The position numbers and the translations under genes were made by a program. A DNA stretch of 64,000 nt from a bacterium (GTDB taxonomy: Bacteria > Patescibacteriota > Patescibacteriia > JBAXGH01), in assembly GCA_037139515.1 (NCBI GenBank), contig JBAXGH010000002.1:17727-81726 (forward strand), given 5' to 3'. The notes under the pieces were generated by a model, which saw only the letters and a list, made by a program, of their open reading frames with translations, did not search any database and was not told the origin of the DNA. Shown piece after piece: positions 1-31,562 of this stretch; positions within the stretch are counted from its first letter, which is position 1; each line of letters starts with the position of its first letter.

Positions 1-1197
1 TCCCCCGCCAATCATAAAGGCATAGCCAAACATGGCAAGGTTCGGCTTGCGGACCGACTGGCGGGCTTTGACTTTCTCGACGTTATAACACAAGTCAAAA
101 GCTTCCTTGCTATACGTAGGACGCCTCATCTTCCAATATTCACGAAGCATCTTATCTTGCCAGTCGAAGACTTCGGGTATAACCGAGTAAAGCTCAGCTA
201 CCGTCAGAGCAGCATATTCATGCTCTTTAAAATACAGATCAGTGGTCTGCAAACCTGTCGATGTGTTCTTGTCATGCTGGCGATAGAAATTGGTTGCCCG
301 CACAGAATACGCAATCGCCCCGCCCCTCATAATATTGAGATAAAAAACCAAGTCACCACAAAACCTTAGCGACAACCACTTCTCGTCGCTCAAAAGCTTC
401 ATCGACCCAGGATTTCTAAATATCACGCTGCTCACGTTTGGAATAATATTTCTTTTACTCATCGCCGAATTAACAATCTGATGAGCAGATTCAATGAAAT
501 CAGATTTCCATTTATCAGGATCAATGTCTCGTAAATATGTTTCAATATCCCAAAAAGGCTCGCCATTCTTCACAAAAACCGTGCGACAATATGCGAGCAT
601 AATCGCTTCATTTGCAAAAAAAGGTACGAGTGAAGAGATTAAATTGGACGAGCAATAATCATCACTCTCAGCAATCCAAATCAATTCCCCTTTTGCCTCC
701 TCAATTCCTCGCTTCCATTGTCTGAATACGGAACCAGAATTTACTTCGTTAAAAATGCATCTTGTCTTTTCTTTATATTTCTCCGCATATTCTGACAATA
801 TCTTTCTGCTACCATCAGATGAGCAGTCATCCATCAAGATTACTTCATAATTTTCATAATCTTGCGAATATATTGAGTCTAGTCTCTGTTCTAAATATTT
901 TTCATGATTGAAATTCGGAACGATTATTGTAATCTTTGGCCTAAAATCACTCGCTGATTCTGATGATCTAAAAAGATTCAGATTTTTGTTAGAAACATCG
1001 CCCGCGCCTGGTGTGATTTTCCTATACATCGCATCAATGCCAGCAACTAGAAACTTAAAGGTTTTATTTACTGCGACAAATAGACCGTCTTTATTTACAA
1101 CACGCAAGAAAGACTTAACTAGAAACACGCCCGAGTTAATCTTATAAAGAATCTTCTTCTCAAGTAACCTCAGCCGATTTACTATTGTTGATTTCAT
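1..1197 (-). CDS. Family 2 glycosyltransferase (start codon at 1197; C-terminus runs off the window start)
   Basis: The reverse-complement frame starting at ATG 1197 is open through position 1. Translation is MKSTIVNRLRLL...IIVPNFNHEKYLEQRLDSIYSQDYENYEVILMDDCSSDGS...WIAESDDY, carrying the GT2 DxD and ExD motifs. The ORF track lacks it because there is no stop codon in the window. Confidence 0.75.
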   Translation of the reverse strand, partial: MKSTIVNRLRLLEKKILYKINSGVFLVKSFLRVVNKDGLFVAVNKTFKFLVAGIDAMYRKITPGAGDVSNKNLNLFRSSESASDFRPKITIIVPNFNHEKYLEQRLDSIYSQDYENYEVILMDDCSSDGSRKILSEYAEKYKEKTRCIFNEVNSGSVFRQWKRGIEEAKGELIWIAESDDYCSSNLISSLVPFFANEAIMLAYCRTVFVKNGEPFWDIETYLRDIDPDKWKSDFIESAHQIVNSAMSKRNIIPNVSSVIFRNPGSMKLLSDEKWLSLRFCGDLVFYLNIMRGGAIAYSVRATNFYRQHDKNTSTGLQTTDLYFKEHEYAALTVAELYSVIPEVFDWQDKMLREYWKMRRPTYSKEAFDLCYNVEKVKARQSVRKPNLAMFGYAFMIGGG

Positions 1198-1253
1198 AAA
1201 GCAAAAACCACCCACGAATACTCAACGAGTATAGCTCATTACTAGGGAAACGA

Positions 1254-2706: not shown

Positions 2707-3564
2707 TTACACCGGCTTCAATACAACGATAGTCTGAAAGATGTCACCCTCATCTAGATAAGATTCCACAACCCCCCACTCTACCCAGTTAAGTTTTATG
2801 AACTCTAGAGACATCGATGCATCCCCATACGGAACATCTCCGTCGATGTTTGGCCTATTGTGCGGCGCATAGGCAAAACCCAGACTCTCATGACTACTCT
2901 TCATGACTCCAACATCACATCTGTTGTTTGAAAATTCCAAATGTCTGTCCCAATACTCTTTCGGCCTGATAGTCACAAACAATAGGCCATCTTTAGAAAT
3001 ATTTTGTCGGAGGACTTTAAGTATGGACTGACCGCATTTCTGCGACAAGTGAGTAAATAAGGAAAAAGCATAAATCAAATCGAACTTTACCGAAAAAGGT
3101 AAACTCTTTGGATATTCATCAACAAGCGCTGTTTTTTCAAGTAGCTTGCATTCGTTACAGATATTTATGGATTCCTGCCAAGCATCAACTCCATATAAGT
3201 TTCCGACAGGAACAAATTTATACATTAAGCGGGAAATTCTCCCCCAGCCGATACCATAATCCAGAACCTTGGATTCAGCCAGAGCTCTGCGCGAGTGTTT
3301 CTGATACTTCTCAACCATTGACCGAACAAAGATACAGCTTTGGGCTAGTAGAATATTGCCAAAACTTCCGGTCCACTGCGTTTGAATTTCATTCGATGGC
3401 ATTGCAGGAAAAAACTGCTTCATCCTTGGGTATTGATCAGGAATCATCAAAAGCAACTCGCCAAAGTCAGCAATATCGATTTCGTTAAAAAGCTCCGGAA
3501 TATTATTTGATGCGGCCGGTAGAATAGAATCCTCGATACACTGCAGCGTGGTTGCTGAAATCAT
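2707..3564 (-). CDS. Class I SAM-dependent methyltransferase
   Basis: VLDYGIGWGRISRLM (motif I-like) and Methyltransf_11/23-like spacing. Confidence 0.6.
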   Translation of the reverse strand: MISATTLQCIEDSILPAASNNIPELFNEIDIADFGELLLMIPDQYPRMKQFFPAMPSNEIQTQWTGSFGNILLAQSCIFVRSMVEKYQKHSRRALAESKVLDYGIGWGRISRLMYKFVPVGNLYGVDAWQESINICNECKLLEKTALVDEYPKSLPFSVKFDLIYAFSLFTHLSQKCGQSILKVLRQNISKDGLLFVTIRPKEYWDRHLEFSNNRCDVGVMKSSHESLGFAYAPHNRPNIDGDVPYGDASMSLEFIKLNWVEWGVVESYLDEGDIFQTIVVLKPV

Positions 3565-3565
3565 A

Positions 3566-5548
3566 TTAATCTTTATGAACAGATTCGATTATTGACTTTG
3601 TCTCTTCTAATACTGAGCATCGTAATAGCATCTCTTTAAGAGATTCTCTGTATGCATTCGTTAGTACATTCAAATCAGCTCCATTCGTAAAACGTTGGTT
3701 ATAGCTATTCTTGTGAATGCGCCAATGCGTCATTTTCTTATCCGCCAGACAGAATTCACCGCGTCGTGCAACTTGCGACCAAATCCACCAGTCAGTCCAT
3801 GCATCAAAGTCTCTGGGACAGAACTCGACCCCACTTAGCGCGCCCGTTCTAACCATGACACTCGAAAATGTTGGAATTGCATTTTCTTTAACAAACAACT
3901 CAATGGCATTGAAGGGCTGTGGATAATTACGAAACTTACGTACACAATTTTCCACATAACCTTGTTTATCAGGAACGTTTTCAGAGTCACCGAATGCCTC
4001 AATATCATTGAATACCAGAACAGCCTCTGGGAATTTCTTAAAAGCCGAGATTTTTTCTGAAAGCATCGAATAGCTCCACTTGTCATCATATTCCAAAAAA
4101 GCTACATATTCACCTTTTACTTCATTTATGGCGCTGGCCAGCGTAGCTGATAGGCCTCTATTAACGTGACCTGGATGGGTACGCAGTTTCACCCTTTCAT
4201 CGTTCAGATACCCAGAAATGACCTTTTCAGAGTTGTCGATCGACCCATCATCAAAGACAATCAATTCCCAATTCGTGTAATTTTGTGCCTTTACTGAGTC
4301 AATCGCTTCTTGTAAATACTTTTCACCATTGTAGTTAGCCATGATTATAGAAACTAATGGTGGTATTGGTGCGCATTGTGCTTGGGATGCTTTCTTCTCA
4401 ACGACAGACCGAATCAGCTTTATTATTTGCGGACAAACTACATTAGGAGCGTAGTGCCTTTCAACTTTTTCGCGACCGGCCAGACCCATGGCACGGGCCC
4501 TACCCTTGTGCTGCATCAAGAACAGAGCCTTACTTGCCATACTAGCTGCATCGCCATACGGCACCACAAAACCGACATCATCCGTCACAAACTCAGGCAT
4601 GCCACCCGCACCCTCAAAACAAATAATAGGCAAACCGCATCGAGCAGCTTCTAAACAGACCAGTGGAAATGGGTCCTCTCTGGACGGCAGCAAGAACAAA
4701 TCACCAGCAGCAAAGTACTCGCTCGGATTCTGCTTTTCTCCTAAAAACGTTACGCGATATTCTAGCTCTTTCTCTCTAGCCACCGATTCGATGTCCGCAT
4801 ATTCATTCTTTAAAATAGATCCAAGCCAGAAGAAATGAAAGTTTTTTACATGCATTTTACTCAATAGTTCTGCCGTCTCCACGAATATATCAGGACCCTT
4901 CCGCCAATCAACGGTTCCGCATCCAAAAACTAGAAAGTCATCCTCCGGCAGGCACAGCTTCTTCCTTAGTTCCGATGAAGGATCGCTATTTCTGACTTTT
5001 CTCTCACCAATAAACTCAGGAATCACAGCAATATTCTCTTCCTTTATTCCATGATTCTTCATCAGGTTTTGCTTTACTGGTCCTGAAACTACAATGTAGC
5101 AATCCATATTCAGCACTAACTCCCTCATCGCTTCTTTGCCGGCGAATTTTATGATGCTCTGTTCTAATTCATGAACACAACAAATCTTTGGCACATTTAA
5201 ATACTTGAAATACTCCAAATATTTACCGGCGACAACGGTATTAAAATACACCACGCCGACATTATCTCCACAGAACTCTTTTATCCCATTACGAGCATCG
5301 TGACTACTCTCAATAACATATACATCTGAAACCTCTTTGTATTCCCCAAGTAACACCCCACCATGACCAAGAACAACTTTGAAACGTATCGCGGTATTTA
5401 TCTTTATCCATTTTAATAAATCCAATAACACAATTTGCGCGCCAGCCCTGGCTGCGTCATGACCGAAAAAAATTATCGTAGAAGCTATTTTGCATCCGTC
5501 ATTTCCCCTTGCTATTGATGCTAATATTCTTTGAATAAATTGCATCAT
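3566..5548 (-). CDS. Bifunctional glycosyltransferase, GT4 (N-terminal) fused to GT2 (C-terminal)
   Basis: N-terminal half ends with the GT4 C-terminal motif GDLFLLPSREDPFPLVCLEAARCGLPIIC. C-terminal half begins with the GT2 N-terminal motif VSIIMANYNGEKYLQEAIDSVKAQNY..LIVFDDGSIDNS. Confidence 0.8.
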   Translation of the reverse strand: MMQFIQRILASIARGNDGCKIASTIIFFGHDAARAGAQIVLLDLLKWIKINTAIRFKVVLGHGGVLLGEYKEVSDVYVIESSHDARNGIKEFCGDNVGVVYFNTVVAGKYLEYFKYLNVPKICCVHELEQSIIKFAGKEAMRELVLNMDCYIVVSGPVKQNLMKNHGIKEENIAVIPEFIGERKVRNSDPSSELRKKLCLPEDDFLVFGCGTVDWRKGPDIFVETAELLSKMHVKNFHFFWLGSILKNEYADIESVAREKELEYRVTFLGEKQNPSEYFAAGDLFLLPSREDPFPLVCLEAARCGLPIICFEGAGGMPEFVTDDVGFVVPYGDAASMASKALFLMQHKGRARAMGLAGREKVERHYAPNVVCPQIIKLIRSVVEKKASQAQCAPIPPLVSIIMANYNGEKYLQEAIDSVKAQNYTNWELIVFDDGSIDNSEKVISGYLNDERVKLRTHPGHVNRGLSATLASAINEVKGEYVAFLEYDDKWSYSMLSEKISAFKKFPEAVLVFNDIEAFGDSENVPDKQGYVENCVRKFRNYPQPFNAIELFVKENAIPTFSSVMVRTGALSGVEFCPRDFDAWTDWWIWSQVARRGEFCLADKKMTHWRIHKNSYNQRFTNGADLNVLTNAYRESLKEMLLRCSVLEETKSIIESVHKD

Positions 5549-6447
5549 AAACCAATTAGCTTCTTAATTTTCACAACGATCTTGCGTCGTTTTGAATCCA
5601 CAGGAAACATGCGGTCAGCAAGCGTCAATAGGCTCTCCTCGAACTTATTTCGTAATGAAATAGGTTTCCCCGTCGTGTTTTTTGTGTTCGCCGAGTTTAT
5701 GCGCTCGGCACCTTTCTTAATAACATATAAATCCTGATGTTCCCACCACTCAGCCTCTTTAAAAAGAATTATTTCCGCACCAAGTTTATAACATTCGTTA
5801 AATACAAATTTCGGTAAAGTTATCGTGAGTCCATAGTCGTTCACATCGAGGTCATTCTGTTCACTACTTGGCTTAAACCAATAACCATCTCCATCTAAAA
5901 CCGATTCAGGAAAATGCTTTTTCAAACTCTGATTTCCATGCGCGGTAAATATAAGATATCCATCTTTTTTTAACCCACCCAATAAGGCGACAAGCCATCT
6001 CGACCATGTTTCTTTTGGCATATGGGAAAAGAACGAAAGCGTAAATATTACATCAAATGGTTTATTTACGCGAAAATCCTCAGGGCGTGTTTCAGAAAGA
6101 ATTACCGGCAACTTCATCGTGCTATTTATAAAATCGATAGTCCCCTTATGTATATCGCACGATGTCACGGAAATTTCAGGAATAGCATTCTTTAAATGCC
6201 TTGTCACGCATCCATACCCAGAAGCGAACTCCAACAGCTCTGTTGTCGGTTTCAACATTCCATAGTCCTGAAGGATACTCCGCAATTTTTCAGCTGACTT
6301 CTTTCCATCTTCGAAGTAATAACGCACCGCATGTTCATAATTAGCTATTGCGCCAATCACGAATTTAAATATCAAATCTTCCGGATGAATTTGCGGAACT
6401 ACGCCAACCCGCTTCGCTGCTTCGATAATAATCTGATTCGTGTTCAT
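5545..6447 (-). CDS. Class I SAM-dependent methyltransferase
   Basis: LEFASGYGCVTRHL (Gly-rich motif I), DVIFTLSFFSHM and IFTAHG motifs. ATGA overlap with the upstream gene. Confidence 0.65.
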   Translation of the reverse strand: MNTNQIIIEAAKRVGVVPQIHPEDLIFKFVIGAIANYEHAVRYYFEDGKKSAEKLRSILQDYGMLKPTTELLEFASGYGCVTRHLKNAIPEISVTSCDIHKGTIDFINSTMKLPVILSETRPEDFRVNKPFDVIFTLSFFSHMPKETWSRWLVALLGGLKKDGYLIFTAHGNQSLKKHFPESVLDGDGYWFKPSSEQNDLDVNDYGLTITLPKFVFNECYKLGAEIILFKEAEWWEHQDLYVIKKGAERINSANTKNTTGKPISLRNKFEESLLTLADRMFPVDSKRRKIVVKIKKLIGL

Positions 6448-19800: not shown

Positions 19801-22800
19801 CACCACCGGCGTCATTAACGAGTAATGCGTTATAGCCAAATGCCGCATTATCTATTCCTACATCAAGGGCGTTCAAAGCATAGGCTCCGGTCGCCGTGTT
19901 TCTGTCTCCAGATGTAAGCGCGAGCATAGCATTGCCGCCAAGTGAAGCATTATTTGAACCAGATGTCAGTAAGGCGAAGGCTGAATTTCCGACCGCAATA
20001 TTATCGGTACCCGAAGCTGTAAAGTTGCCTGCTCCCGACCCGAGGAAGATGTTAGCACCATAGTCATGCAGGAATCGCGAGCCGCCAACAGTCACCACGC
20101 CAACGCTACTCGAAGTGGTCGTTGCCAAAGCTAAATTACCATCAAGACGAGCATCACCATCAACTTCTAAGCCGCCACCAATAGCTAACAAATTAGTTGC
20201 GCGTGTTGAACCAATCGTCGGACTGCCGATTCTAACTACCCCGTTTACCCCGGTTCCGCTTCCATTACCGCCAAGCAAAACAATGTCGCCACCATTAGAA
20301 GTCGCCGAGATGCCAAGGCCACCGGTAACCTCCACATTGCCAGCATTACCCGAATCACTACCCGAAGTTCCACCGTTCAAGACCAGATTGCCTCCGGCGC
20401 TATTTCCGTTCCCATTTCCAGGCCTAACGGTCAGTTGATTTCCAGCAACATCCGGATTGGCGGTAGTGATCCCTATTGTACGATCGGCACCATTTCTAAA
20501 ATACATGTCCGAACCGTATATCAAACTGCTTGCGTTAATCGTTACCTGATCAAGAGCTGAACCGATGTTGATAAAATCAGTGGCAGCATTGTTAGTACCG
20601 ATATTTATCGTGTTTCCAGCATTTCCATTGCCGATTCCAATCGTCTTAACGGCAGAGCCCGAGCCAATATTAATAGCCTCAGCGCTCCCATCATTACCAA
20701 TTTCTATATTTCCCGTGGTAGCACTATTCAACGTTAAAGTAGTATTTGTGCCGCCAGAAGAAAGTGTGACAGCCCCGGTACCAGAATACGACTGCGAGGC
20801 GCCAACAGAGACGCCCACCGTACCAGAAAGTAGCCCAGCTGAAGTGATGGTCCCTGAACCGGTTGAGGAGATATTCCCAGTTGTAGTAATCGCGCCAGCG
20901 GAAGTGAGCGAACCGGAAACGATATCGATAGCAGAACCGATACCAGCATTACTAATCTGCAGCGCATGAGCTGAAGATTCGTTGTTGCTCAATGCTATCT
21001 GAACCAATGTTCCGGTAGACAGATTTGCATGCGAGCTATCTTCCTGCACCGATAATACTGGCTCCGAACGTGCACCCCCTAAAACCGTCGCGAGTATTTC
21101 GAGTGTTTTATCATGAGCTCCATCAAAAGAATCTGATACATCCGAACGCAGGAATGACGCCGAATCAAGATCGTCAAAGGTATCGACGTTCAAGTTTGAA
21201 ACTTTGGTTGTGGATGCAACTACAAACGGAGCTGAACCGGTTGCGAGAGTCGATGTTAGTTGACCCGACATGCCGAGCGTCGTGATGCCGGAAAGGGCAC
21301 CGCCGGAAGAAACGTCCAATCCAGACGAATCAAGCTGGAAAGAGTCATCGTTTGCATTTCCGATTCGAATAACCTTAGTACCAATGTTCGCGCCGATATC
21401 AATAGCCTGTGCTCCAGTACCTCCGAGCGTAATCGAACCAGACGATGTTCCGGTCGCGATATTCACACCGAAGTCCGAGCTTGCGTTCAAATTAACCGTG
21501 GCACCGGTCACGTTGAGACCGAGATTTCCGGTGAGCAGTCCGGCTGATGTAATCGTACCAGAACCGGTTGAAGAAATATTGTTCGAAGTCGTAATCACGC
21601 CAGCGGAAGTGAGCGAACCAGAGATAATATTAAGAGCTGAACCGGAACCAGATTGAGTGATCTGAAGAGCGTGAGCGGATGAAGCCGTATCAAGCTGAAT
21701 AATCTCGGCTAAGACTCCGGTATTATTATTCGCTGCGTCATTAGCTTGCGAAACCGAAAGTACAGCGGCGGTTCGATTCCCTGCCGTGAGCGTTGAAAGC
21801 AGTGACAAAGTTTTGCTGTTAAGCCCATCAAAAGAATCCGAAGCATCAGAACGCAGGAATGACGCCGAATCAAGATCGTCAAATGTATCGACGTTCAGAT
21901 TTGAAACTTTGGTCGTTGACGCAACCACGAATGGCGCTGAACCGGTTGCGAGAGTCGAAGTGAGTTGACCCGACATGCCGAGTGTTGTGATGCCAGAGAG
22001 GGCGCCAGCGGAGGTAACATCCAGGCCTGATGAGTTGATAGCAAAGAAATCATCATTTGCATTGCCGATAGTGATGATTTTCGATGCCACGCCGGTACCA
22101 ATATCAATCGTCTGACCCATTGATCCACCGAGTGTAATCGTACCAGTCGATGTTCCGCCGGCAAGACTGACTCCGAAGTCAGAGCTGTCGTTTAAGCTCA
22201 CTGCGGCACCAGTCACAGTGAGACCGAGGTTTCCGGTTAAAAGCTGCGAAGACGTAAGCGCTCCATTCACCGTAGTCGTAATGCCGGAACGCGAAACCGA
22301 AACCGAAGTTGCGGCCACAGTTCCAAGGTTAAGCGCGCCAACCGAGTCGAGCGCCATAGTTCCGGAAGTCAAAGTCTGAATCGTAAGATTACCGCCGGCA
22401 TTGTTCCAAGAAGAAATTCCATTGGAAGCAATCGCCAAAGTCGATGAATTGATAGCCGTCGGATCGTTAACTCCGTTACCAATCGTGATAGTTTTAGCCG
22501 CAACTCCGGTCCCAATATCAATCGCCTGAGTGCCGGTACCGCCAAGCGTGATTGTGCCGGTTGAAGTTCCGGTCGCGATGTTCACACCAAAATCCGAGCT
22601 CGCATTCAAACTGACCACGGCGCCGGTCACGGTTAGGCCGAGGTTTCCGGAGAGCAGCCCAGCTGATGTAATCGTGCCAGCGCCGGTTGTCGAGATATTA
22701 TTAGTTGTGGTGATAGCACCGGCGGAAGTGAGCGAACCCGAGATAATATCAAGCGCTGAGCCAGATCCAGCTTGTGTGATTTGAAGAGCGTGAGCTGACG

Positions 22801-24046: not shown

Positions 24047-24146
24047 TCTGCGCCATTAGGAATTATATCACATACCGCCCTCTGCTTTATTGTTAATAAA
24101 AAATCAAAACGCCGCTTTGTGCGACGCTTTGATTCGTCTAAATTAA

Positions 24147-27100
24147 TTAAGTTGTTGGGGTACCGGAAAGATCAGCAACCGGAGCCACTAACCCACCATC
24201 GGTAGCTGGCACGGGTTCGACGGCTGGGGCTGGATCGCTGATTGGAGCTGGGGCTGGTTCTGGCGCAGGATCAGCTACCGGATCTGGTGCTGGTACCGGA
24301 TTAGGCACAGGATCGGTTACCGGAACTGGATCCGGTACCGCTGCTGGAGCTACTGGTTCGATCACCGCGGCTGGTTCTGTAGGCGTTGTTGTGGTAGCTG
24401 GCGCGGTTGGGACGGTTGATTCAGCGGGTACGGTTGGGGTCGTAGTTGGAGCTACCGGACCATTCGCAACCGGGTTTTGCGCGGTCACCGGACGAGTATC
24501 GTTCACATTAATAATCCAATACTCGAAACGAAGTTGCATCACAGCTGGACTGCTCAACCTGATTTCGAAGGACCCTTCAGCCTGATTATTAACCCAATAT
24601 CTAGCACCCGGGTCGCCACGGAAAGTTAAGAAGATGCGTGAATTTTCGTGGACAGATGCGTTTGTAATAACAACCATGTCTGAGTTCGCCGGGAAGTAGG
24701 CGGTGTCGATAGTCGCTTTCTCTTCGTTCACCTGAACTATATATTCATTGGACGAAACCGACTTAACCACGAGTGCGCCGTTTTCATCAATAGACCAGTT
24801 CTGACCGCGGATTGCTTTGATATTCGTAATCGAGAAGCCCCTGAAATCAACATCTTGGTAGATCTGGAAATTCTGAGTTTGTTGCGAGGTTGATTCGGTG
24901 GCTAAGTTAGTTGGGACGGCGTTTTCGGTTTTGACGTAGACGATGATGGAGGCATCAACCAGGGTGGCTTCGAGCGCATAGCCAATATTTTTTCTGGTCG
25001 AGGCTGTGGCTTTGGTGGCAAAGCCTGGGCGGGTCGGAGAAACCGTGAGGGCATCACCGACTGCGATTGGACCATTCTCAACCGTCACTTTAGTTGGAAC
25101 ACGACCAGCGAGAGCGACCGGGACCTTCTTTGAAGCCTTATCCCACTCACCCGCTAGGAAGCCAGGGCGAGTTGAGATGATACCGAGAAGGAGGTTAGGC
25201 GCCGAAGAGTCGGCTCGCTTCACGTGTTCTGGGTATAACGGATCGATTGCGACGACTTCACCGGCTCCGAGGGTTTCATCTTTGGTTGGGAAGAGTTCAG
25301 CAAAATCATAGGAACCGGTCGCCCAGCCGGCGGCATTGGTTCGCATGTAATCTGACGGCGACATGTCGGAGTCGTAGTAAATATACTTCGAAGTTTGTGC
25401 GACGCCTTTGTCGGATGGGAAGAGCTTGCCGGTAATCACGACATCACCGGATTGATTGACGCTAAAGACTTCAGCTCCAGCCGTGTTCGCAATCGCTAAT
25501 CTAGATGTTGCGGAATTGGTGGTGATATTCGAAAGCTTGAAATTCGTGGCTTGTGCAGCCGCACCATCCCAGCCGGAGCCGGTGAACGAGATCGCTTGGG
25601 AGTCATAACCTTCAACAAGCGCGGTTGCGGTGTTCTTGGCTTTTACGATTACGGAATCATTCAAATACGTAAGCGTGCCGTCGGTTGTGAGGGTGGCTCC
25701 GAGATAGTATTCAGTCTTAACAAAGACCATGACTGTGCCGGCGCCTGGACCCGCAAAGGCGGAAAGTGCGCGGCCAACAATCATGCCCGACTTTGTGGAT
25801 TTCATGCCTTCGCCGGCGGTTGAACTTGAAGTAATCGGGTCACCGACTGCGATCGAACCATTTTCGTCATTAACTTTAACTTTTACGCGACCAACGAGCG
25901 CGACTGGGAGCGGATTATCGGCCGGATTGATGTTGTAGCCGATAGAGTTAAAATCACCAGCCGTGGCAGGATCGGAAATGACGCCAATAAGTTTGGCTTC
26001 GTATGGAGCTGAAGATTTGATGAGCTCCTTAATTGTGTCACCTTGAGTCGTGGTGACGTCGGTTGTGCCAATCATGACTATGTCCCCCATCGCAGCACCG
26101 ACTTCGACCGGATACTGTTCGGCGTAGTCAGCCATTGGACCACCATTACAATCTTTGATTTCATCAATACCGGCTCCATTGGTATCGTGACAAAGTGCGT
26201 ACGGTCCAGTAATGCCAGTCGCAACAATCAAACTGACTGTGACGCGGCTATTGATGGCGACGGCCGGTTGGTTCATGCCAGCATAGCCTATGGTAATCGC
26301 TTTTGTATGAGAAGTTCCAATATTCACATCTCCATCATTTGCTGAAACGCCTGAACCGCCTAAGACGCTAATATTTCCTCCGGTTTCACCTGGAGATCCT
26401 CCGTTGCCGCCACGAAGCGTAACAGCTCCGCCGGTCGCACCGGTTCCACCATAAAGATTAACCGCTCCGCCGGAGCCATCGTTCGAGGCGCCACCAGCCA
26501 GGTTCAAAGCGCCTGCTGTGCCGAAGGCATTCGTTGTATTTCCGGAAGTAATCGTGAGATCTCTTCCATCAGTGGCAGTTGCACTCTCTATTGAAATATT
26601 GTGATTCGCGTTCTTGCCAAAAACTATTTCTCCCGCAGCATCAACTGAGAGCAGCCTGGCAGCAAAACTGTTCTGAAGCTCCATTAAATTTCCAGTTTGC
26701 GAAGCAGCACCGGTAAGCACAATACCCTTGTTTGCGGCGACCGAAACTTCAATGTCGAGCTCACCATCAGGTGTGCTGTCGGCTGGATAACCAATACTCA
26801 TGCCTCCGCCAGAAGCCTGGTTTTTTATCTTGAGACGACGCTGTTTCCCTAGTTCATCGATGTAATAATAATCATCAGTAGAGTCGTAGGCCATGACCCA
26901 GTCATTCGAATCAGTAGAATTGTGGAGGCGGACGTTGCCATCCTGAACAGTGAGCTTATCTCCCATAGGAGCCGTACCGATGCCTACGCGACCGGTCTGA
27001 TCGATCGTAAATTGGGAGTTAGCTGCTCCACCATAAATACTTACCGGACCAGTTACGTTCATACCGCGTCCAACCTGCATACCACCACGAATATCTAAAT

Positions 27101-30100
27101 CATTACCAACCTGAACGTTAGAACGCGTAGTGAGAGTTCCAGTTTCTATGCCACCCGCTTCGAGTTGTTGGATATAGGCACCACCCATATCAAAAACTTG
27201 GAGCGTAGCCGAGCTATAGTTAATTACGTAAGCATAGCGACCTTGGACATAGACGCTGTATGGATTAGTACCTGTGGTGACAGAGCCAACACTCGTTGGG
27301 CTACCCGGAGTTGAAACATCGAAGACTTGAAGTGAATTAGGAGAGACCCAATTGGTTAGATAGACATAGCGACCTTGGACAAATATTCCGGTAGAAACTG
27401 CTGCGGTGGCGATTGAACCGGCTGAAGATGGGCTTGCGGGATTTGAAATATCGAATATACGGAGCGTGGCGTCGGTAAAATCAGTTTCGTAGGCATATCG
27501 ACCCTGAACATAAAGGCCATATGGATTGATTCCTGAAGCAACTGAGTTGATGAACGTTGGGCTCGCAGGGTTCGAGACATCGTATATTTTTAAACTGCCA
27601 CTCATCGCCACATAAGCATAGCGACCTTGGACAGATACAACTCTAGGGAGAGATCCAGTTGCGACCGAGCCTACAACTACCGGACTCACAGGATTTGAGA
27701 CATCGAAGACCTGGAGAGTTCCGGCATCGCTATTAACTACGTAAGCATAACGGCCCTGAACATAAACGCTTTCCGGCGAGCTACCGGTTGCGACCGAGCT
27801 AATGGCTGACGGACTAGCTGGATTTGAAACATCAAAAATTTGAAGAGTCGCCGCGGTATTACTGACCACGTAAGCATAGAGACCCTGAACGTAAACACTG
27901 GACGGATTATTGTTGGCTGAAACCGAACCGATAGCCGCCGGACTCGCCGAATTGGACACGTCAAAAATTCGGAGGGTGTCAGAAGCCCCGGCGACGACCA
28001 CATAAGCATAGCGTCCCTGAACGTATACTCCGGTTGGGGTGGTGCCGGTGCTAATAGAGCCGGCGGCAGCGGACGGTACTTTGCCGGCTGCATGAAGTTG
28101 AGAAATTGGAGTTGCCGTGCCGATGCCGACATCGCCATTGCCAAGCACGGTTACGAAAGTTCCGCCAGAATCACCAATTTGAAGTACCTCATCGGTGGCG
28201 CCTAGATTGGTGGCAGTCGTGAAATTGAAGGCTGAACTGGTGGTGTTGCCGGATGGGAAATCTGAAGTTAGATTGATTTGACCGCCGGTCGCGGAGCCGT
28301 TTCTGGTTGTCGTAAGATTCAAAGCTCCGGCGCCGGTTGTGCCGATGAATTTTAATTCCGCCAGAACATCATTGGTTCCCCCACCTATCGCGGTGGTCGT
28401 GGAATACATCTTCAAACTTGCCGGACCGAGGTATAATTCGCGCCAACGTTTGGCCGCCGAACCCAAATCATAGGCTATATCAGTCGCCGGCGTTAAATCA
28501 CCAGTAAAAGAAACTGCGTCTGAGAAAACGAAACTCGCACCGGCTCCGGTGGCGTCAAAGGTAGTGGCACCGTTCGAGGCGGCACCCATCGTGGTGTAAT
28601 TTGAACCATCATATGCCATCCGTAACTGCGGCGAAGATGTGCTTAAGACCTCAAGTCGGCTATTTGGCGAGCTAGTCCCGATGCCAACATTCCCCGTCGA
28701 ATCAATGCGAACCTTTTCAGAGAGCGCGGCACCGGCGGCGCGAGTGATGAAGCGGAAAGAGCTATCCTCGCTTCCTTCGGTGGCGTCATCCAAAACCACA
28801 TTAAACTGCGCCACAGCGTTATTATTTCCATTTGCGTTTTCAATATAATAATCCGTTCCAAATCCGAGTCCATTTCCACCCACGGTAGCTGAATTCGTAA
28901 TCTCAAATCTTTGAGCTGCGCTAACTGCGTCGCTTGAGGCTGTAGCCGCTATCGTGAAAAGATGCGATGGAGCCGTGGTGCCGATGCCAATATTGCCATC
29001 CTTATCGATACTCATCTTTACTCCCGCGGTGGTTCCGTTCGCGGTCACAAAATCCATGCGCGCAGGAACATCAGCGCCAACAGCACCGGTCTGAACAACC
29101 TGAATCAAGCCTCCATTCAAGAATCCGGAGCCATCATTTCCCTGGAATCTGAATTGACCCAAGATATTGCCGTCCACCGTGGCGACATTGGTCGCTGAAG
29201 CGGAGTTAGATTTTTGCAAGTCGATACTTGAATAAAGAGATGCATTATCGTAAGTCGTGATGGCGGTGGTACCGTTTTCGGCGATTGTTTGGACTTGGAG
29301 TTTTGATGAAGGAGTCGTGGTGCCGATGCCGATGTTGCCGCTTACTATCAGACCATTAGCCGGAGCGGCGCTTGTGGCGGCGTAACTTCCGATTGCTACC
29401 CCTCCGTTTACATCGAGCCTGGACAATGGGGCGCCTGTGCCGATGCCGACGTTGCCGTTTTCAAGAATGCGCATTTTTTCAGATCCGGCGGTATTGAAAA
29501 TAACATCATCAGCGCCGGCGGTAGTGGTCGCGCTCAAAGTTAGCGCGCCAGTCGATTGCAGAGTGAAAGCACCATTCGCGACTGTCGACGATTCACCATA
29601 AGTAGTAGCTGCAAGAATGCCACCAGTTCCAGAGGTGAAGGAATTCGCGTAGACACTATCTTGGGCGGCAAAATCACCGTTCACGAAAGCATCATTGCCA
29701 TCCGGCACAAAACTCGCGTGGACACCAACGGGAACAGTGGTAACACCACCGGTCCAGAAATTTCCGGTTGAATCAAAGCGGCCACGCTCGACATTGTTGG
29801 TTTCAAAAGTCAGAGCAAAAGCATCATTTGTGCCAAGAATTGCATCGGCCGGGCCAAAGCTGTTTCCGCCCTGGATGAAAGCAAAACCCGAAACATCGCT
29901 CGACTGAATCGCGTTTGAGACAAAGTTAGTACCATCGCCACGGAGAAAATTGCCGGCAGTTGCGGCGTTCGCAATTCTAAAACCAGTCGCGGAATTAATA
30001 ATGCCGTTTACATCAAGCAAAGTTCCGGCCCCCGGCGCCGCGGTGCCGATACCAACTTGGCCAGTGGTTGTAATGCGCATCTTTTCGCTTTGACTCGCGG

Positions 30101-31562
30101 TTTTGAAAATGATTGCATCGGTAGTGCCGACTCCGGAGGTTGATTCAAGTGTGAGGATGGAAGCGGCCGCAGCTCCACCGATAAGAAGTGGCGTGGTGAC
30201 AGAGGTTCCGATTGTTGGCGCGTCTGAAAATGATGGGACGCCGGCATTGGCAATCAAAATCGAATTCGCTCCACCTTGAGCTGTAACCTGAATGGCTGAA
30301 GTAGTGTTGCCATAAAGTATGCCGTTTGGCGTAAAAGTCGTGGCTCCGGTACCACCATTCCCTACCGGTAGAGTGCCGGAAACTTCGGTAGCGAGTGCAA
30401 CAGCTCCGAAGCTTGGAACGGCGCCGCCATGAAGAATCTGAGACGAAGTGCCGGCGGTGGCTTGGGAGAGAGCGCCAGAACCATTGGTGAAGAGCGGGCC
30501 ACCATTTGATGAAAATCCACTGAAAGTGATAGTGCCGGAACTCGTGATGCCGGCGGCGGCTGCAATTATACCCGCAGAGCTGACTTGAAATTGACTAGTC
30601 GCGCCGACAGAGAAAAGGCTGGTGGGAGTCGTGGTGCCGATACCGACATTTCCGGTAGCTAAAATCCTGAGGCGTTCAATATTTTTGGTTTCGAGCGCGA
30701 GCGCATTTGCATCATTCGTGCCAAGAGTTGCGAGGGCGGCAAAAGAGTTGCCACTTTGAACAAAAGTGTTTGGATTACTCATGGAGACAAAGGCCGCTCC
30801 ATCATAAGCATAAAGTGTATTGCCGGTTGAATCCCAGACGACATCGCCCTCTTCCGTTCCGACGACAGCCGAAGGAGCTCCAGCATTGGTTGGGACTCTT
30901 AGACCCTGACTCGCTGAGTGCACTGGAGCTAGAATGCGACCACCGACGGCAAGATTTCTGGTGAGAGTCAAATGGCCACCAGAGTCGGTAACCGGCACGA
31001 AAGCCGCGGAGCCGCCGGACTGCGAAGTATCAAAACCATCTAAGAGAGAGGCATTTCCGGCTTGAAGGGCGGTGGCGCTTGAGCCGATGCGACGGCGCGG
31101 AGAAAGAGTTTCGCCATCAATTCTAACTTCCAACCAACGCCCTTCGGTGGTATTGAAAAGTGAATCCGGAAGCGCAATCTGTCCACTACCAGTATCGCCA
31201 AGAAGGATGTTGAAAAGCCCGTCAGCTACAGTAACGGAAACCGTGCCTGGAGAAGCACAGGTTCCGACAGCAGTCCATTTACAATTCGCAACCAAAACCG
31301 CGACTGGATCATTATAAATTATAAAACTTATCGATCTCACACCATCAGGAACCGTCACTTTTTGAGCATCAGTTAAGCGCCCTTGATAAGACAGAATCTG
31401 AGGCGTGTCGAGAGTGGCTTTAGAAACACTTGGCAATAAAACAGCGAGAGAAACAAAAACAAGCACGCCGATAGCAAGCATTCTTGCTCCGGGATGCAAT
31501 AACAAACCAAAAACTCTGGATTTTAGATTGCCTTCAAGCATGGACAAGGCAGACCTCACCAT
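24147..31562 (-). CDS. Giant surface protein A (2471 aa): signal anchor, shared N-terminal module, LVIVD-repeat beta-propeller region, shared C-terminal ~650 aa module, Pro-rich tail
   Basis: 7.4 kb open frame. About 7 repeats of VYVQGRYAYVV..ATLQIFDVSNPASP (LVIVD-type). The C-terminal region (PMADYAEQYPV...GSYDFAELFPTKDETLGAGEVVAIDP...) is ~75 % identical to giant B. Ends in a PVPxP tail. Confidence 0.85.
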   Translation of the reverse strand: MVRSALSMLEGNLKSRVFGLLLHPGARMLAIGVLVFVSLAVLLPSVSKATLDTPQILSYQGRLTDAQKVTVPDGVRSISFIIYNDPVAVLVANCKWTAVGTCASPGTVSVTVADGLFNILLGDTGSGQIALPDSLFNTTEGRWLEVRIDGETLSPRRRIGSSATALQAGNASLLDGFDTSQSGGSAAFVPVTDSGGHLTLTRNLAVGGRILAPVHSASQGLRVPTNAGAPSAVVGTEEGDVVWDSTGNTLYAYDGAAFVSMSNPNTFVQSGNSFAALATLGTNDANALALETKNIERLRILATGNVGIGTTTPTSLFSVGATSQFQVSSAGIIAAAAGITSSGTITFSGFSSNGGPLFTNGSGALSQATAGTSSQILHGGAVPSFGAVALATEVSGTLPVGNGGTGATTFTPNGILYGNTTSAIQVTAQGGANSILIANAGVPSFSDAPTIGTSVTTPLLIGGAAAASILTLESTSGVGTTDAIIFKTASQSEKMRITTTGQVGIGTAAPGAGTLLDVNGIINSATGFRIANAATAGNFLRGDGTNFVSNAIQSSDVSGFAFIQGGNSFGPADAILGTNDAFALTFETNNVERGRFDSTGNFWTGGVTTVPVGVHASFVPDGNDAFVNGDFAAQDSVYANSFTSGTGGILAATTYGESSTVANGAFTLQSTGALTLSATTTAGADDVIFNTAGSEKMRILENGNVGIGTGAPLSRLDVNGGVAIGSYAATSAAPANGLIVSGNIGIGTTTPSSKLQVQTIAENGTTAITTYDNASLYSSIDLQKSNSASATNVATVDGNILGQFRFQGNDGSGFLNGGLIQVVQTGAVGADVPARMDFVTANGTTAGVKMSIDKDGNIGIGTTAPSHLFTIAATASSDAVSAAQRFEITNSATVGGNGLGFGTDYYIENANGNNNAVAQFNVVLDDATEGSEDSSFRFITRAAGAALSEKVRIDSTGNVGIGTSSPNSRLEVLSTSSPQLRMAYDGSNYTTMGAASNGATTFDATGAGASFVFSDAVSFTGDLTPATDIAYDLGSAAKRWRELYLGPASLKMYSTTTAIGGGTNDVLAELKFIGTTGAGALNLTTTRNGSATGGQINLTSDFPSGNTTSSAFNFTTATNLGATDEVLQIGDSGGTFVTVLGNGDVGIGTATPISQLHAAGKVPSAAAGSISTGTTPTGVYVQGRYAYVVVAGASDTLRIFDVSNSASPAAIGSVSANNNPSSVYVQGLYAYVVSNTAATLQIFDVSNPASPSAISSVATGSSPESVYVQGRYAYVVNSDAGTLQVFDVSNPVSPVVVGSVATGSLPRVVSVQGRYAYVAMSGSLKIYDVSNPASPTFINSVASGINPYGLYVQGRYAYETDFTDATLRIFDISNPASPSSAGSIATAAVSTGIFVQGRYVYLTNWVSPNSLQVFDVSTPGSPTSVGSVTTGTNPYSVYVQGRYAYVINYSSATLQVFDMGGAYIQQLEAGGIETGTLTTRSNVQVGNDLDIRGGMQVGRGMNVTGPVSIYGGAANSQFTIDQTGRVGIGTAPMGDKLTVQDGNVRLHNSTDSNDWVMAYDSTDDYYYIDELGKQRRLKIKNQASGGGMSIGYPADSTPDGELDIEVSVAANKGIVLTGAASQTGNLMELQNSFAARLLSVDAAGEIVFGKNANHNISIESATATDGRDLTITSGNTTNAFGTAGALNLAGGASNDGSGGAVNLYGGTGATGGAVTLRGGNGGSPGETGGNISVLGGSGVSANDGDVNIGTSHTKAITIGYAGMNQPAVAINSRVTVSLIVATGITGPYALCHDTNGAGIDEIKDCNGGPMADYAEQYPVEVGAAMGDIVMIGTTDVTTTQGDTIKELIKSSAPYEAKLIGVISDPATAGDFNSIGYNINPADNPLPVALVGRVKVKVNDENGSIAVGDPITSSSTAGEGMKSTKSGMIVGRALSAFAGPGAGTVMVFVKTEYYLGATLTTDGTLTYLNDSVIVKAKNTATALVEGYDSQAISFTGSGWDGAAAQATNFKLSNITTNSATSRLAIANTAGAEVFSVNQSGDVVITGKLFPSDKGVAQTSKYIYYDSDMSPSDYMRTNAAGWATGSYDFAELFPTKDETLGAGEVVAIDPLYPEHVKRADSSAPNLLLGIISTRPGFLAGEWDKASKKVPVALAGRVPTKVTVENGPIAVGDALTVSPTRPGFATKATASTRKNIGYALEATLVDASIIVYVKTENAVPTNLATESTSQQTQNFQIYQDVDFRGFSITNIKAIRGQNWSIDENGALVVKSVSSNEYIVQVNEEKATIDTAYFPANSDMVVITNASVHENSRIFLTFRGDPGARYWVNNQAEGSFEIRLSSPAVMQLRFEYWIINVNDTRPVTAQNPVANGPVAPTTTPTVPAESTVPTAPATTTTPTEPAAVIEPVAPAAVPDPVPVTDPVPNPVPAPDPVADPAPEPAPAPISDPAPAVEPVPATDGGLVAPVADLSGTPTT
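27150..28070 (-). repeat. LVIVD-type repeat array (coding) in giant gene A
   Basis: YAYVV...L(Q/R)(I/V)FDVSNP(A/V)SP recurs about every 40 aa, 7 times. Confidence 0.65.

What the first reader, a model, noticed from the sequence alone, without database searches (positions are those of the whole stretch)
1..31562. Candidate surface-protein O-glycosylation system: giant S/T-rich proteins, Wzy_C-TPR ligase and methylated-glycan genes
Two giant Ser/Thr/Gly-rich secreted proteins lie directly upstream of, and co-oriented with, a Wzy_C (O-antigen-ligase fold) membrane protein that has a periplasmic TPR tail. Behind that is a 13-kb glycan operon with GT2, WbsX-like, GT4-GT2 fusion and GT4-type transferases, an LtaS/sulfatase-family membrane transferase and four separate SAM methyltransferases. 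In several bacteria Wzy_C-fold proteins (PglL/PilO type) act as protein O-oligosaccharyltransferases. The layout suggests the giant proteins are decorated with a heavily methylated glycan. No nucleotide-sugar synthesis genes or flippase are visible here, so the pathway is incomplete within the window.
Basis: partly seen in the sequence, partly recalled or inferred. Interest (0 to 1): 0.75.

Follow-up and report, generated by a model that had tools for sequence, protein, structure and literature searches.

The report
Glycan ligase beside giant surface fibres
In an uncultured ultra-small (Patescibacteria/CPR) bacterium, two giant phage-fibre-like surface proteins lie next to a catalytically intact WaaL/PglL-type glycan-transferring membrane enzyme and a methyltransferase-rich sugar-assembly locus; protein glycosylation is a plausible reading of this layout but has not been shown.

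Summary
On the minus strand lie two paralogous giant secreted fibre proteins (2471 and 3408 aa), a 677-aa Wzy_C membrane protein with a C-terminal TPR domain, and a glycan locus with GT2/GT4 fusions, WbsX, an LtaS-like enzyme and 3-4 methyltransferases. This locus runs at least 7.6 kb past the window start.

Linkage to the giants is mixed. In 80 related genomes the catalytic ("C-type") family sits beside Wzx, phosphoglycosyltransferase and NDP-sugar genes and murB-secA, never beside giants. Terminator-like hairpins follow each giant gene.

The fibre family does have a conserved partner. In 38 of 61 metagenomic loci the next gene is a Wzy_C-like TPR protein, but that "F-type" has lost every catalytic residue (0/48 intact). 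The window is the only sampled case with a catalytic enzyme in that slot.

Best reading: en-bloc transfer of a methylated, lipid-linked glycan to an extracytoplasmic acceptor, most likely protein, with the fibres as candidate substrates. A TacL-like lipid ligase or a polymerase remains possible. Verdict: partly supported.

The parts
24147..31562 (-). Giant fibre protein A (2471 aa). It has a signal-like N-terminus, repeated 'GNVGIGTxxP' fibre motifs, a six-bladed LVIVD propeller, a conserved ~550-aa C-terminal module and a Pro/Thr/Ala-rich tail.
   Evidence: ORF and translation. LVIVD 1.2e-32. Composition. The C-terminal module is 67% identical to that of giant B.
24101..24135 (-). Terminator-like hairpin (15-pair stem plus T-run) immediately after the giant A stop codon.
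13820..24046 (-). Giant fibre protein B (3408 aa), a paralogue of A. It shares the N-terminal ~210 aa (58% identity) and the C-terminal ~650 aa (67%), with a different S/T/G-rich repeat middle and a Pro-rich acidic tail.
13791..13823 (-). Terminator-like hairpin (AAAAACACGGA-loop-TCCGTGTTTTT plus T-run) that overlaps the giant B stop codon, 30 nt upstream of the Wzy_C start.
11726..13759 (-). Wzy_C/WaaL-fold glycan transferase with 13 TM helices and a C-terminal TPR domain (residues ~465-671) that is inferred to lie outside the cytoplasm. It is of the catalytic 'C-type', with R102, H111, R160, N167, R215, R279, H327 and D332 present.
10854..11648 (-). SAM-dependent methyltransferase (264 aa).
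   Evidence: Methyltransf_11, 8.5e-14
9265..10641 (-). 458-aa protein with a weak C-terminal class-I methyltransferase signature, below Pfam cutoffs.
6468..9284 (-). LtaS/EptA-like membrane alkaline-phosphatase-superfamily transferase (938 aa). It has N-terminal hydrophobic segments, a sulfatase domain and a ~430-aa C-terminal extension of unknown function.
   Evidence: Sulfatase 1.6e-17. Weak LtaS, YejM and arylsulfatase NCBIfam hits. Sequence.
5545..6447 (-). SAM-dependent methyltransferase (300 aa).
   Evidence: Methyltransf_12, 32.3 bits
3566..5548 (-). GT4-GT2 fusion glycosyltransferase (660 aa).
   Evidence: Glycos_transf_1 1.5e-26 and Glycos_transf_2 5.8e-24
2707..3564 (-). SAM-dependent methyltransferase (285 aa).
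   Evidence: Methyltransf_25, 33.6 bits
1254..2681 (-). WbsX-family glycosyltransferase (475 aa) with a C-terminal coiled-coil-like tail.
   Evidence: PF14307, 3.9e-136
1..1197 (-). N-terminal GT2 part of a 748-754-aa GT2-GT4 fusion that is cut by the window start. The locus continues on Logan contig L002.
   Evidence: Frame translation. L002 gene table and ORFs.

Best explanation
The region is a surface-glycoconjugate module of a Patescibacterium placed directly downstream of two giant, phage-fibre-like surface proteins.

Proposed mechanism:
1. The downstream locus builds a methyl-decorated oligo- or polysaccharide on a polyprenyl carrier. It has at least six glycosyltransferase domains, five to six methyltransferases, an LtaS-like phospho-transferase and, just outside the window, a polyprenyl-phosphate hexose synthase next to a 561-aa polytopic membrane protein.
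2. The glycan is flipped by a transporter encoded elsewhere.
3. The 677-aa WaaL/PglL-fold enzyme transfers it en bloc from the lipid carrier to a hydroxyl on an extracytoplasmic acceptor.

I consider the acceptor most likely to be protein Ser/Thr, that is, a PglL/WsfB-like O-oligosaccharyltransferase of the kind found in Bacillales S-layer glycosylation clusters. The reasons are that the phylum lacks LPS, that the enzyme carries a TPR protein-interaction domain which I infer to be external, and that a degenerate paralogue of this enzyme is the conserved operon partner of exactly this fibre family. The adjacent fibres, especially their Pro/Thr/Ala-rich C-terminal tails, are candidate substrates but not necessarily the only ones.

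Shown: gene content, WaaL fold, conserved catalytic residues, taxonomic placement, and the neighbourhood statistics for both subfamilies.

Inferred: the lipid-linked donor, the outside location of the TPR domain, the acceptor class, and the fibres as substrates.
For: Enzyme:
- Pfam Wzy_C at 3.8e-17.
- The family profile hits only WaaL 7tpg (5.4e-13) and a 610-aa 'Oligosaccharyltransferase', 9rmk (9.7e-12), in the PDB. The 9rmk match covers more of the membrane domain, profile positions 124-444 against 201-372.
- R215, R279 and H327 are invariant in 23, 15 and 77 family members. They align to R191, R265 and H313 of 7tpg. The equivalent triad, WaaL R215/R288/H338 and PglL R224/R298/H349, is functionally important (PMC3643930).

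Host: Wzy_C relatives, fibre relatives and MetK relatives are all Patescibacteria.

Ligase rather than polymerase: in relatives the gene is flanked by Wzx (13 of 74 immediate neighbours), initiating Bac_transf (7), NDP-sugar enzymes and, in some loci, Wzm/Wzt ABC exporters. ABC-exported glycans need no Wzy polymerase.

Protein acceptor:
- PglL and WsfB carry C-terminal TPR motifs (PMC2943079).
- Bacillales slg clusters also contain methyltransferase, TagD/TagF-like and AsnB-like genes, as the relatives' clusters do.
- The fibre family's conserved next gene is a Wzy_C-like TPR paralogue in 38 of 61 loci, and within six genes in 49 of 61, often with gaps of -32 to +15 nt.
- pglL genes are commonly adjacent to and co-oriented with their targets.
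Against: - No glycoprotein evidence exists.
- The catalytic subfamily is a near-core gene next to murB-secA. SecA lies within 10 kb in 40 of the 80 loci; 49 of the 80 have at least 5 kb of sequence downstream. It has no ORF over 1238 aa and no fibre module within 10 kb in 80 loci.
- The fibres' usual partner has lost all catalytic residues (0 of 48 intact). The conserved link may therefore be docking or assembly rather than glycosylation.
- Terminator-like hairpins separate giant A, giant B and the enzyme gene.
- The Pfam PglL_A model (PF15864) was not hit at E<=0.01.
- S/T-richness runs through the whole length of both beta-rich fibre proteins, and Pro-rich tails occur in fibres with non-catalytic partners.
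- An LtaS-like gene in this locus, and TagF-like or cytidylyltransferase genes in relatives, fit a teichoic-acid-like polymer equally well.
- No flippase or initiating transferase has been seen for this locus.
Confidence: 0.42

Rival explanations
1. TacL-like lipid ligase. The enzyme transfers a Und-PP-linked, teichoic-acid-like or methylated polymer onto a membrane glycolipid, giving a lipoglycan or type-IV-like LTA. The giants are unrelated neighbours.
For: - S. pneumoniae TacL is a Wzy_C-domain protein of a monoderm that ligates teichoic acid chains to a glycolipid (PMC5727136).
- The C-type family is near-universal in the phylum (at least 590 hits) and syntenic with murB-secA, Wzx and cytidylyltransferase or TagF-like genes.
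- An LtaS-like gene lies in this locus.
- No C-type locus contains fibres.
- Terminators lie between the giants and the enzyme gene.
Against: - TacL is 397 aa and has no TPR domain. Every C-type member carries a ~250-300-aa TPR domain.
- TagD/TagF-like genes also occur in the protein-glycosylating slg cluster of P. alvei, so they do not discriminate.
- The paralogue's tight linkage to protein fibres points to protein partners.
Confidence: 0.25
2. Wzy-type polymerase. The protein polymerises Und-PP-linked repeat units of a secondary cell-wall polysaccharide, which another enzyme (for example an LCP enzyme) then attaches.
For: - Pfam Wzy_C also covers some polymerases.
- There is a weak NCBIfam hit to 'oligosaccharide repeat unit polymerase' (18 bits).
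- A Wzx flippase is the most common immediate neighbour in relatives.
- SEDS polymerases are the next structural neighbours.
Against: - The NCBIfam polymerase hit is far below its cutoff of 40 bits.
- The WaaL/PglL Arg/Arg/His set is invariant.
- Some relatives sit beside Wzm/Wzt ABC exporters, and that pathway needs no Wzy.
- No Wzz-like co-polymerase was seen.
Confidence: 0.1
3. The enzyme acts as a dock or assembly factor for the fibres, like its degenerate F-type paralogue. Its TPR domain and outer loops would bind and anchor the fibres. The glycan locus beside it would be a separate function, or the juxtaposition would be a rearrangement that replaced an F-type gene.
For: - The F-type is the next gene after the fibre in 38 of 61 loci and lacks catalytic residues.
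- The window contains no F-type gene. The C-type gene occupies that slot.
- The window's enzyme is an outlier within the C-type: 386 bits against at least 610 for other members. It has also lost residues that are conserved in both subfamilies (K38, D324, R325).
Against: - It scores 386 bits against the C-type HMM and 48 bits against the F-type HMM, and it keeps every catalytic residue.
- It heads a tightly packed glycan gene array.
- The other cassette genes that normally accompany F-type loci are absent from the window.
Confidence: 0.13

Closest known systems
PglL (Neisseria) and related general O-oligosaccharyltransferases
   Same: - Same Wzy_C/WaaL superfamily, and the conserved Arg/Arg/His triad is present.
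- PglL is reported to have a C-terminal TPR motif.
- pglL genes are often adjacent to and co-oriented with the target gene.
- The PDB OTase 9rmk matches the family profile over most of the membrane domain.
   Different: - There is no hit to the PglL_A Pfam model at E<=0.01.
- The window protein alone finds no PDB sequence hit; only the family profile does.
- The host is a presumed monoderm CPR bacterium, and the putative targets are giant fibres rather than pilins.
- No activity has been shown.
S-layer glycosylation (slg) clusters of Paenibacillus alvei (WsfB) and Geobacillus stearothermophilus (WsaB, WsaE)
   Same: - The host is a monoderm.
- A Wzy_C O-OTase (WsfB, with TPR) is encoded with glycosyltransferases, a methyltransferase activity, TagD/TagF-like genes and an AsnB-like gene, next to the gene for the surface-protein target.
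- Relatives of the window enzyme have the same accessory gene types.
   Different: - The target there is an S-layer protein and glycosylation has been shown experimentally.
- Here the neighbours are fibre proteins, and far more methyltransferases are present.
- No rml genes, initiating transferase or exporter are in view.
WaaL O-antigen ligase (Cupriavidus metallidurans, PDB 7tpg/7tpj)
   Different: - WaaL has 12 TM helices and no TPR domain, and it acts on lipid A-core.
- The window protein has a 13th TM helix plus a ~210-aa TPR domain.
- It comes from a phylum known to lack LPS. That rests on established knowledge and was not tested on this genome.
TacL lipoteichoic acid ligase (Streptococcus pneumoniae)
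   Same: A Wzy_C-domain enzyme of a monoderm that works with a Wzx-type flippase pathway.
   Different: TacL is 397 aa, has no TPR domain and uses a glycolipid acceptor.
Fibre-associated 'F-type' Wzy_C-like TPR proteins of Patescibacteria
   Same: - Same overall architecture of a polytopic membrane domain followed by TPR. hhalign probability against the family profile is 99.7% over 695 columns.
- Same genomic slot, immediately after a fibre gene carrying the same C-terminal module.
   Different: - The F-type lacks R102, H111, R215, R279, H327 and D332 (0 of 48 intact), whereas the window protein keeps them all.
- The window protein scores 48 bits on the F-type HMM against 386 bits on the C-type HMM.
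- F-type loci lack adjacent homologues of the window's glycan genes.

Membership tests
Wzy_C / WaaL-PglL superfamily (PF04932) | Significant match to the Wzy_C model | tested here: met
   62.9 bits against a cutoff of 31.7, E 3.8e-17, residues 201-346
Wzy_C / WaaL-PglL superfamily (PF04932) | WaaL-type polytopic fold | tested here: met
Wzy_C / WaaL-PglL superfamily (PF04932) | Conserved Arg/Arg/His (E. coli WaaL R215/R288/H338; PglL R224/R298/H349) | tested here: met
   R215, R279 and H327 are invariant in the family alignments and in 77 of 77 C-type members. They align to R191, R265 and H313 of 7tpg. Reference residues come from PMC3643930.
PglL-type protein O-oligosaccharyltransferase | PglL_A / PglL_B motifs flanking Wzy_C (Pfam PF15864) | tested here: not met
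   No PF15864 hit at E<=0.01 in the Pfam scan. That model was built from proteobacterial PglLs.
PglL-type protein O-oligosaccharyltransferase | C-terminal TPR motif (reported for PglL and WsfB) | tested here: met
   Helical-repeat domain at 465-671 in the model. The family profile matches TPR proteins strongly.
PglL-type protein O-oligosaccharyltransferase | Gene adjacent to and co-oriented with the target-protein gene | tested here: inconclusive
   The gene is adjacent to and co-oriented with two secreted giants, but it is separated from them by a terminator-like hairpin. The adjacency is not conserved in 80 C-type loci.
PglL-type protein O-oligosaccharyltransferase | Demonstrated transfer of Und-PP-glycan to Ser/Thr of a protein | not testable with these tools
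   Needs glycoproteomics or a heterologous glycosylation assay.
WaaL lipid A-core O-antigen ligase | Lipid A-core acceptor and LPS pathway in the organism, with the gene in a waa or O-antigen locus | tested here: inconclusive
   No lpx, waa or kdo genes occur in the 64-kb window or the 7.6-kb extension. The host is placed in Patescibacteria, which lack LPS according to established knowledge. The rest of the genome was not available.
TacL-type LTA ligase | ~400-aa Wzy_C protein without extra domains that ligates teichoic acid to a glycolipid | tested here: not met
   The protein is 677 aa, with a 13th TM helix and a TPR domain. TacL is 397 aa. The acceptor chemistry cannot be tested.
Wzy O-antigen/repeat-unit polymerase | Match to polymerase models, with dependence on Wzx and Wzz | tested here: not met
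   NCBIfam glyco_rpt_poly scores 18 bits against a cutoff of 40. There is no Wzz. Some relatives lie next to Wzm/Wzt exporters.
Fibre-associated F-type Wzy_C-like TPR proteins | Loss of the catalytic residues, with a high score on the F-type HMM | tested here: not met
   The window protein keeps all catalytic residues. It scores 47.7 bits on the F-type HMM against 385.8 bits on the C-type HMM.
Patescibacterial phage-fibre-like surface fibres (the giants) | Shared C-terminal module with tandem ~150-aa beta domains | tested here: met
   A and B share the module at 67% identity. There are 100 protein and 203 metagenomic relatives. Foldseek gives weak matches to phage decoration proteins and to phi29 gp12, and weaker ones to the Bdellovibrio fibre Bd2439, best E 9e-4.

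The most novel reading that the evidence does not exclude
Patescibacterial host-attachment fibres may have co-evolved with WaaL/PglL-fold TPR membrane proteins. On this reading the ancestral enzyme O-glycosylated the fibres. In most lineages a duplicate lost catalysis and became a dedicated membrane dock or assembly factor, encoded right after the fibre gene. This window would then preserve, or have re-created, the enzyme-substrate pairing: a catalytically intact, unusually divergent ligase that decorates two giant fibres with a heavily methylated glycan. That would make it the first defined protein-glycosylation system of the CPR, together with a pseudo-enzyme offshoot.
Probability: 0.22. Interest if true: 0.75.

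Novelty: new variant of a known kind. Interest (0 to 1): 0.55.

Why it matters
The envelope glycoconjugates of CPR/Patescibacteria are essentially uncharacterised. My literature searches found nothing that links the phylum to O-antigen-ligase-type enzymes.

A WaaL/PglL-fold enzyme with a TPR domain is present in at least 590 species-level Patescibacteria genomes and sits next to murB-secA. That suggests a core surface glycoconjugate pathway in organisms that have no LPS.

Its catalytically dead paralogue is the conserved operon partner of a family of phage-fibre-like surface proteins. These fibres are candidate host-attachment organelles of these epibionts.

If the enzyme glycosylates proteins, several things follow. 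The window would give a concrete enzyme/substrate pair to test heterologously. It could yield new O-OTase specificities for glycoengineering. It would also give a handle on how CPR cells present, or mask, their giant adhesins.

Tried and rejected
1. A PDB sequence search with the full-length family profile was swamped by TPR proteins. I repeated it with the membrane domain only.
2. The window protein alone finds no PDB sequence hit.
3. The search for related loci with the 15-sequence alignment failed for lack of a conserved stretch. A 6-sequence alignment worked.
4. I first read the GC step at ~14 kb as an island boundary that put the Wzy_C gene with the glycan locus and apart from the giants. 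I rejected this as a strong argument. GC3 is 0.40-0.44 for most glycan genes (one at 0.50), 0.44 for Wzy_C, 0.46-0.47 for the giants and 0.48-0.56 for most housekeeping genes checked. The step therefore comes mostly from the giants' amino-acid composition, with GC2 at 0.52-0.55.
5. I looked in the window for the other genes of the metagenomic fibre cassette and for an F-type gene. Neither is present.
7. Literature searches for CPR or Patescibacteria together with O-antigen ligase or glycosylation gave nothing relevant. The WaaL structure paper was not held.
8. The fibre C-terminal module model is only moderately confident (pLDDT 68). Its fold matches are weak (best E 9e-4), so the phage-decoration-like fold is a lead only.
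9. The 561-aa polytopic protein next to the polyprenyl-phosphate hexose synthase has no Pfam or NCBIfam hit. It lies outside the window, so it could not be submitted for structure prediction. Its GT-C identity remains a guess.

Full report
**Observation.** All features in the finding lie on the minus strand, so transcription runs from high to low coordinates.

In order, the genes are:
- ParA (33449-34216), ParB (32520-33437) and a Band7/SPFH protein (31647-32423)
- giant A (24147-31562, 2471 aa)
- giant B (13820-24046, 3408 aa)
- a 677-aa Wzy_C protein (11726-13759)
- a methyltransferase (10854-11648)
- a 458-aa protein with a sub-threshold methyltransferase signature (9265-10641)
- a 938-aa LtaS/sulfatase-family membrane protein (6468-9284)
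- a methyltransferase (5545-6447)
- a GT4-GT2 fusion (3566-5548)
- a methyltransferase (2707-3564)
- a WbsX glycosyltransferase (1254-2681)
- a GT2 domain cut by the window start (1-~1197)

A Logan contig of the same organism (L002) shows that the last gene is a 748-754-aa GT2-GT4 fusion. The locus then continues with a weak GT2 (302 aa), a 561-aa polytopic membrane protein with no family hit, and a 390-aa GT2 with C-terminal TM helices. That GT2 is most similar to AglJ, dolichyl-phosphate hexose synthases and PpgS. Two more methyltransferases follow, one of the TylF type on the opposite strand.

No flippase, initiating phosphoglycosyltransferase or NDP-sugar genes are visible. The rest of the window (34-64 kb) holds core chromosomal genes: tRNAs, ScpAB, two class-II aminoacyl-tRNA synthetases, MetK, RecO, Map, Adk, SecY and ribosomal proteins.

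**Organism.** Every relative of the Wzy_C protein lies in Patescibacteria/CPR. This holds for the 28 hits in the protein collection, where named, and for at least 590 hits in species-representative genomes (Nomura-, Zambryski-, Kaiser-, Giovannoni-, Campbell- and Magasanikbacteria, and MAGs labelled Saccharibacteria). The named relatives of the fibre module are chiefly Uhrbacteria and other Patescibacteria. The named relatives of the window's MetK are all CPR groups at 70-75% identity. That CPR bacteria are monoderm and lack LPS is established knowledge. I could not check it on this genome beyond the ~72 kb in hand.

**The enzyme.**
- A 23-member family alignment has R102, G105, R215, R279, G297, G299, H327, G338 and F389 invariant.
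- A profile of the membrane domain hits only two PDB sequences. One is WaaL from Cupriavidus metallidurans (7tpg, 5.4e-13). The other is a 610-aa 'Oligosaccharyltransferase' (9rmk, 9.7e-12), whose match spans more of the domain.
- In the WaaL alignment, R215, R279 and H327 pair with R191, R265 and H313. The equivalent residues are functionally important in E. coli WaaL (R215/R288/H338) and conserved in PglL (R224/R298/H349) (PMC3643930).
- The AF2 model has pLDDT 84 and pTM 0.85, with 13 TM helices followed by a helical-repeat domain at 465-671.
- With an N-in topology, a 13th helix places the TPR domain outside the cytoplasm. This is an inference from the WaaL topology and from the positive charges in loop 60-69.
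- Fold and sequence establish a WaaL/PglL-type transferase. They cannot tell what the acceptor is.

**Neighbourhood of the catalytic family.** I took the best 80 genomic loci (1.26 Mb) and called ORFs.
- The family is 720-760 aa long in nearly all of them.
- At E<=1e-5, the immediate upstream neighbour matches, most often, a Wzx flippase (13 of 74), a Bac_transf initiating transferase (7), a GDP-mannose-dehydratase/epimerase-type enzyme (6), a cytidylyltransferase (5), a GT4 (4), a methyltransferase (4) or an ABC exporter (3 + 3).
- SecA lies within 10 kb in 40 of the 80 loci, MurB in 29 and Wzx in 21; 49 of the 80 loci have at least 5 kb of sequence downstream of the gene.
- No locus holds another ORF longer than 1238 aa, and none holds the fibre C-terminal module.
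- The catalytic 'C-type' enzyme is thus a near-core envelope gene tied to the assembly of lipid-linked glycans, not to giant proteins.
- Its occurrence beside Wzm/Wzt exporters argues for a ligase or OTase rather than a Wzy polymerase.

**The giants.**
- A and B are paralogues with the same ends: the N-terminal ~210 aa at 58% identity and the C-terminal ~650 aa at 67%. Their middles are unrelated.
- S+T is 20-24% and Gly 12-14% along the whole length, with few charged residues. The last ~100 residues are ~29% Pro and acidic.
- The shared C-terminal module contains two copies of a ~150-aa beta domain. A moderate-confidence model (pLDDT 68) gives weak Foldseek matches to phage capsid decoration proteins and to phi29 gp12 (best E 9e-4), and still weaker ones to a Bdellovibrio fibre.
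- Relatives carry Peptidase_S74 or G2 chaperone domains.
- The giants are therefore phage-fibre-like surface fibres. Their S/T-richness is spread along the whole fibre rather than confined to one segment, so it does not by itself point to glycosylation.

**The unexpected link.** I traced the fibre module into public data.
- In three of three contigs, an ~800-aa membrane plus TPR protein was encoded downstream of the fibre gene on the same strand. It was the next gene in two of them and five ORFs away in the third.
- Profile comparison shows that these belong to the same superfamily as the window enzyme. hhalign probability is 99.7% over 695 columns for one and 98.8% for another.
- A metagenome scan returned 80 fibre loci, 75 of them distinct.
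- Of 61 loci with at least 2.6 kb downstream, 38 have such a protein as the very next gene and 49 have one within six genes. Intergenic gaps are often -32 to +15 nt.
- These 'F-type' proteins have lost the catalytic set: R102 to E, H111 to A or S, R215 to W, R279 to T, F or A, H327 to S, F, N or A, and D332 to T. None of 48 keeps R215, R279 and H327 together.
- Their loci carry no detectable homologues of the window's glycan genes.
- Instead they carry a cassette: two ~300-aa proteins of unknown function, a CarboxypepD_reg/SdrD_B Ig-like protein of about 680-1360 aa, the fibre, and the F-type protein.

**Where the window fits.**
- The window protein is C-type. It scores 385.8 bits on the C-type HMM against 47.7 bits on the F-type HMM, and all catalytic residues are present.
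- It is also an outlier within the C-type. Other members score at least 610 bits. It lacks K38, D324 and R325, which both subfamilies conserve, and its best relative is only 31-33% identical.
- It is the only Wzy-like ORF in the window, and the other cassette genes are absent.
- Among 80 C-type loci and 80 fibre loci sampled, the window is the only case in which a catalytic enzyme occupies the slot after the fibres.
- Strong terminator-like hairpins follow giant A (15-pair stem) and giant B (13-pair stem plus T-run, 30 nt before the enzyme's start codon). Co-transcription is therefore doubtful.
- The GC step at 14 kb is mostly an effect of amino-acid composition. GC3 is 0.44 for the enzyme, 0.40-0.44 for most glycan genes (one at 0.50), 0.46-0.47 for the giants, and 0.48-0.56 for most housekeeping genes checked.

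**Interpretation.**
- Well supported (about 0.75): the enzyme transfers a pre-assembled, lipid-linked glycan made by the downstream methyltransferase-rich locus to an extracytoplasmic acceptor.
- The acceptor class is inferred. I favour protein for three reasons. The TPR domain is shared with PglL and WsfB and is absent from WaaL and TacL. The gene types in relatives' clusters resemble those of Bacillales S-layer glycosylation clusters. A pseudo-enzyme paralogue is bound to protein fibres, and such paralogues often keep the partner of their catalytic ancestor.
- That the two adjacent giants are substrates is plausible, on the precedent of pglL adjacency and their Pro/Thr/Ala-rich tails. It is unproven and not conserved elsewhere.
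- A TacL-like lipid ligase is the main rival. A polymerase role and a pure docking role are less likely.

**Novelty and verdict.** NCBI already annotates the enzyme as an 'O-antigen ligase family protein', so the gene family itself is known. Three things appear to be new:
- a TPR-bearing WaaL/PglL-fold enzyme as a near-core gene of a phylum known to lack LPS;
- a catalytically dead paralogue as the conserved partner of a phage-fibre-like protein family;
- this window's exceptional pairing of the catalytic form with giant fibres and a heavily methylating glycan locus.

Noticed in passing
L092-L171 (metagenome loci), e.g. L140:3765-14306 and L150:3546-14421: A conserved Patescibacterial 'fibre cassette' recurs in these loci. 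It consists of two ~300-aa proteins with no family hit, a CarboxypepD_reg/SdrD_B Ig-like protein of about 680-1360 aa, a fibre with the same C-terminal module as the window's giants, and a ~780-aa Wzy_C-like TPR membrane protein that lacks all WaaL/PglL catalytic residues. A ~359-aa protein often follows.
   Followed up: partly
window 24513-26165 and 14186-15865 (-): The C-terminal module of both giants holds two copies of a ~150-aa beta domain (motif D[YF]AE..P...GD.V...VALAGRVP.KV..ENG.IA.GD). It gives weak fold matches to phage capsid decoration or cement proteins and to phi29 gp12, and weaker ones to a Bdellovibrio Bd2439 fibre.
   Followed up: partly
window 13820-24046 (-), protein residues ~200-1100: Giant B contains about three copies of a long (~300-400 aa) repeat, with the segment '...LDVS..GALSGITTLGMSGQLTST.ATGSAPFVVASTTKVSNLNVD...' recurring. 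This is visible in the translation; I did not analyse it further.
   Followed up: no
L002:5665-8494 (just beyond the window start): A polyprenyl-phosphate hexose synthase (AglJ/Dol-P-hexose-synthase-like GT2 with TM helices) overlaps the end of a 561-aa polytopic membrane protein that has no family hit. The pair could be a GtrB plus GT-C-type extracytoplasmic glycosylation pair, and so a second possible route to protein or glycan decoration.
   Followed up: partly
window 44906-45961 (-): SAM synthetase (MetK) is encoded about 13 kb upstream of the giants, in the same orientation as the methyltransferase-rich locus. This is probably coincidental housekeeping placement.
   Followed up: no
window 50157-51779 (+): Two plus-strand ORFs (150 and 346 aa) in a low-GC patch (GC 0.42-0.43) have no Pfam hit. 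They interrupt an otherwise minus-strand housekeeping block.
   Followed up: no
window 31647-34216 (-): ParA, ParB and a Band7/SPFH protein lie immediately upstream of the giants. Cumulative GC skew is monotonic across the window, so no replication origin switch is visible here.
   Followed up: no
window 36348-36505 (-) and 37204-37277 (+): Two tandem tRNA genes lie on the minus strand and one divergent tRNA gene on the plus strand, between the ParAB block and the housekeeping genes.
   Followed up: no
L053 and L085 (C-type loci): Some Patescibacteria carry two tandem Wzy_C-TPR genes, so duplication of the catalytic form occurs. This bears on the origin of the F-type and of the divergent window copy.
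   Followed up: no
L003 and L005/L006, ~8-10 kb downstream of the C-type gene: In Nomurabacteria and Zambryskibacteria contigs, giant surface proteins (1995 aa NosD/beta-helix; 1654 aa Peptidase_S74) lie after secA-obg-gatB, about 8-10 kb from the C-type enzyme. This is a loose regional co-location of a different giant-protein family.
   Followed up: no
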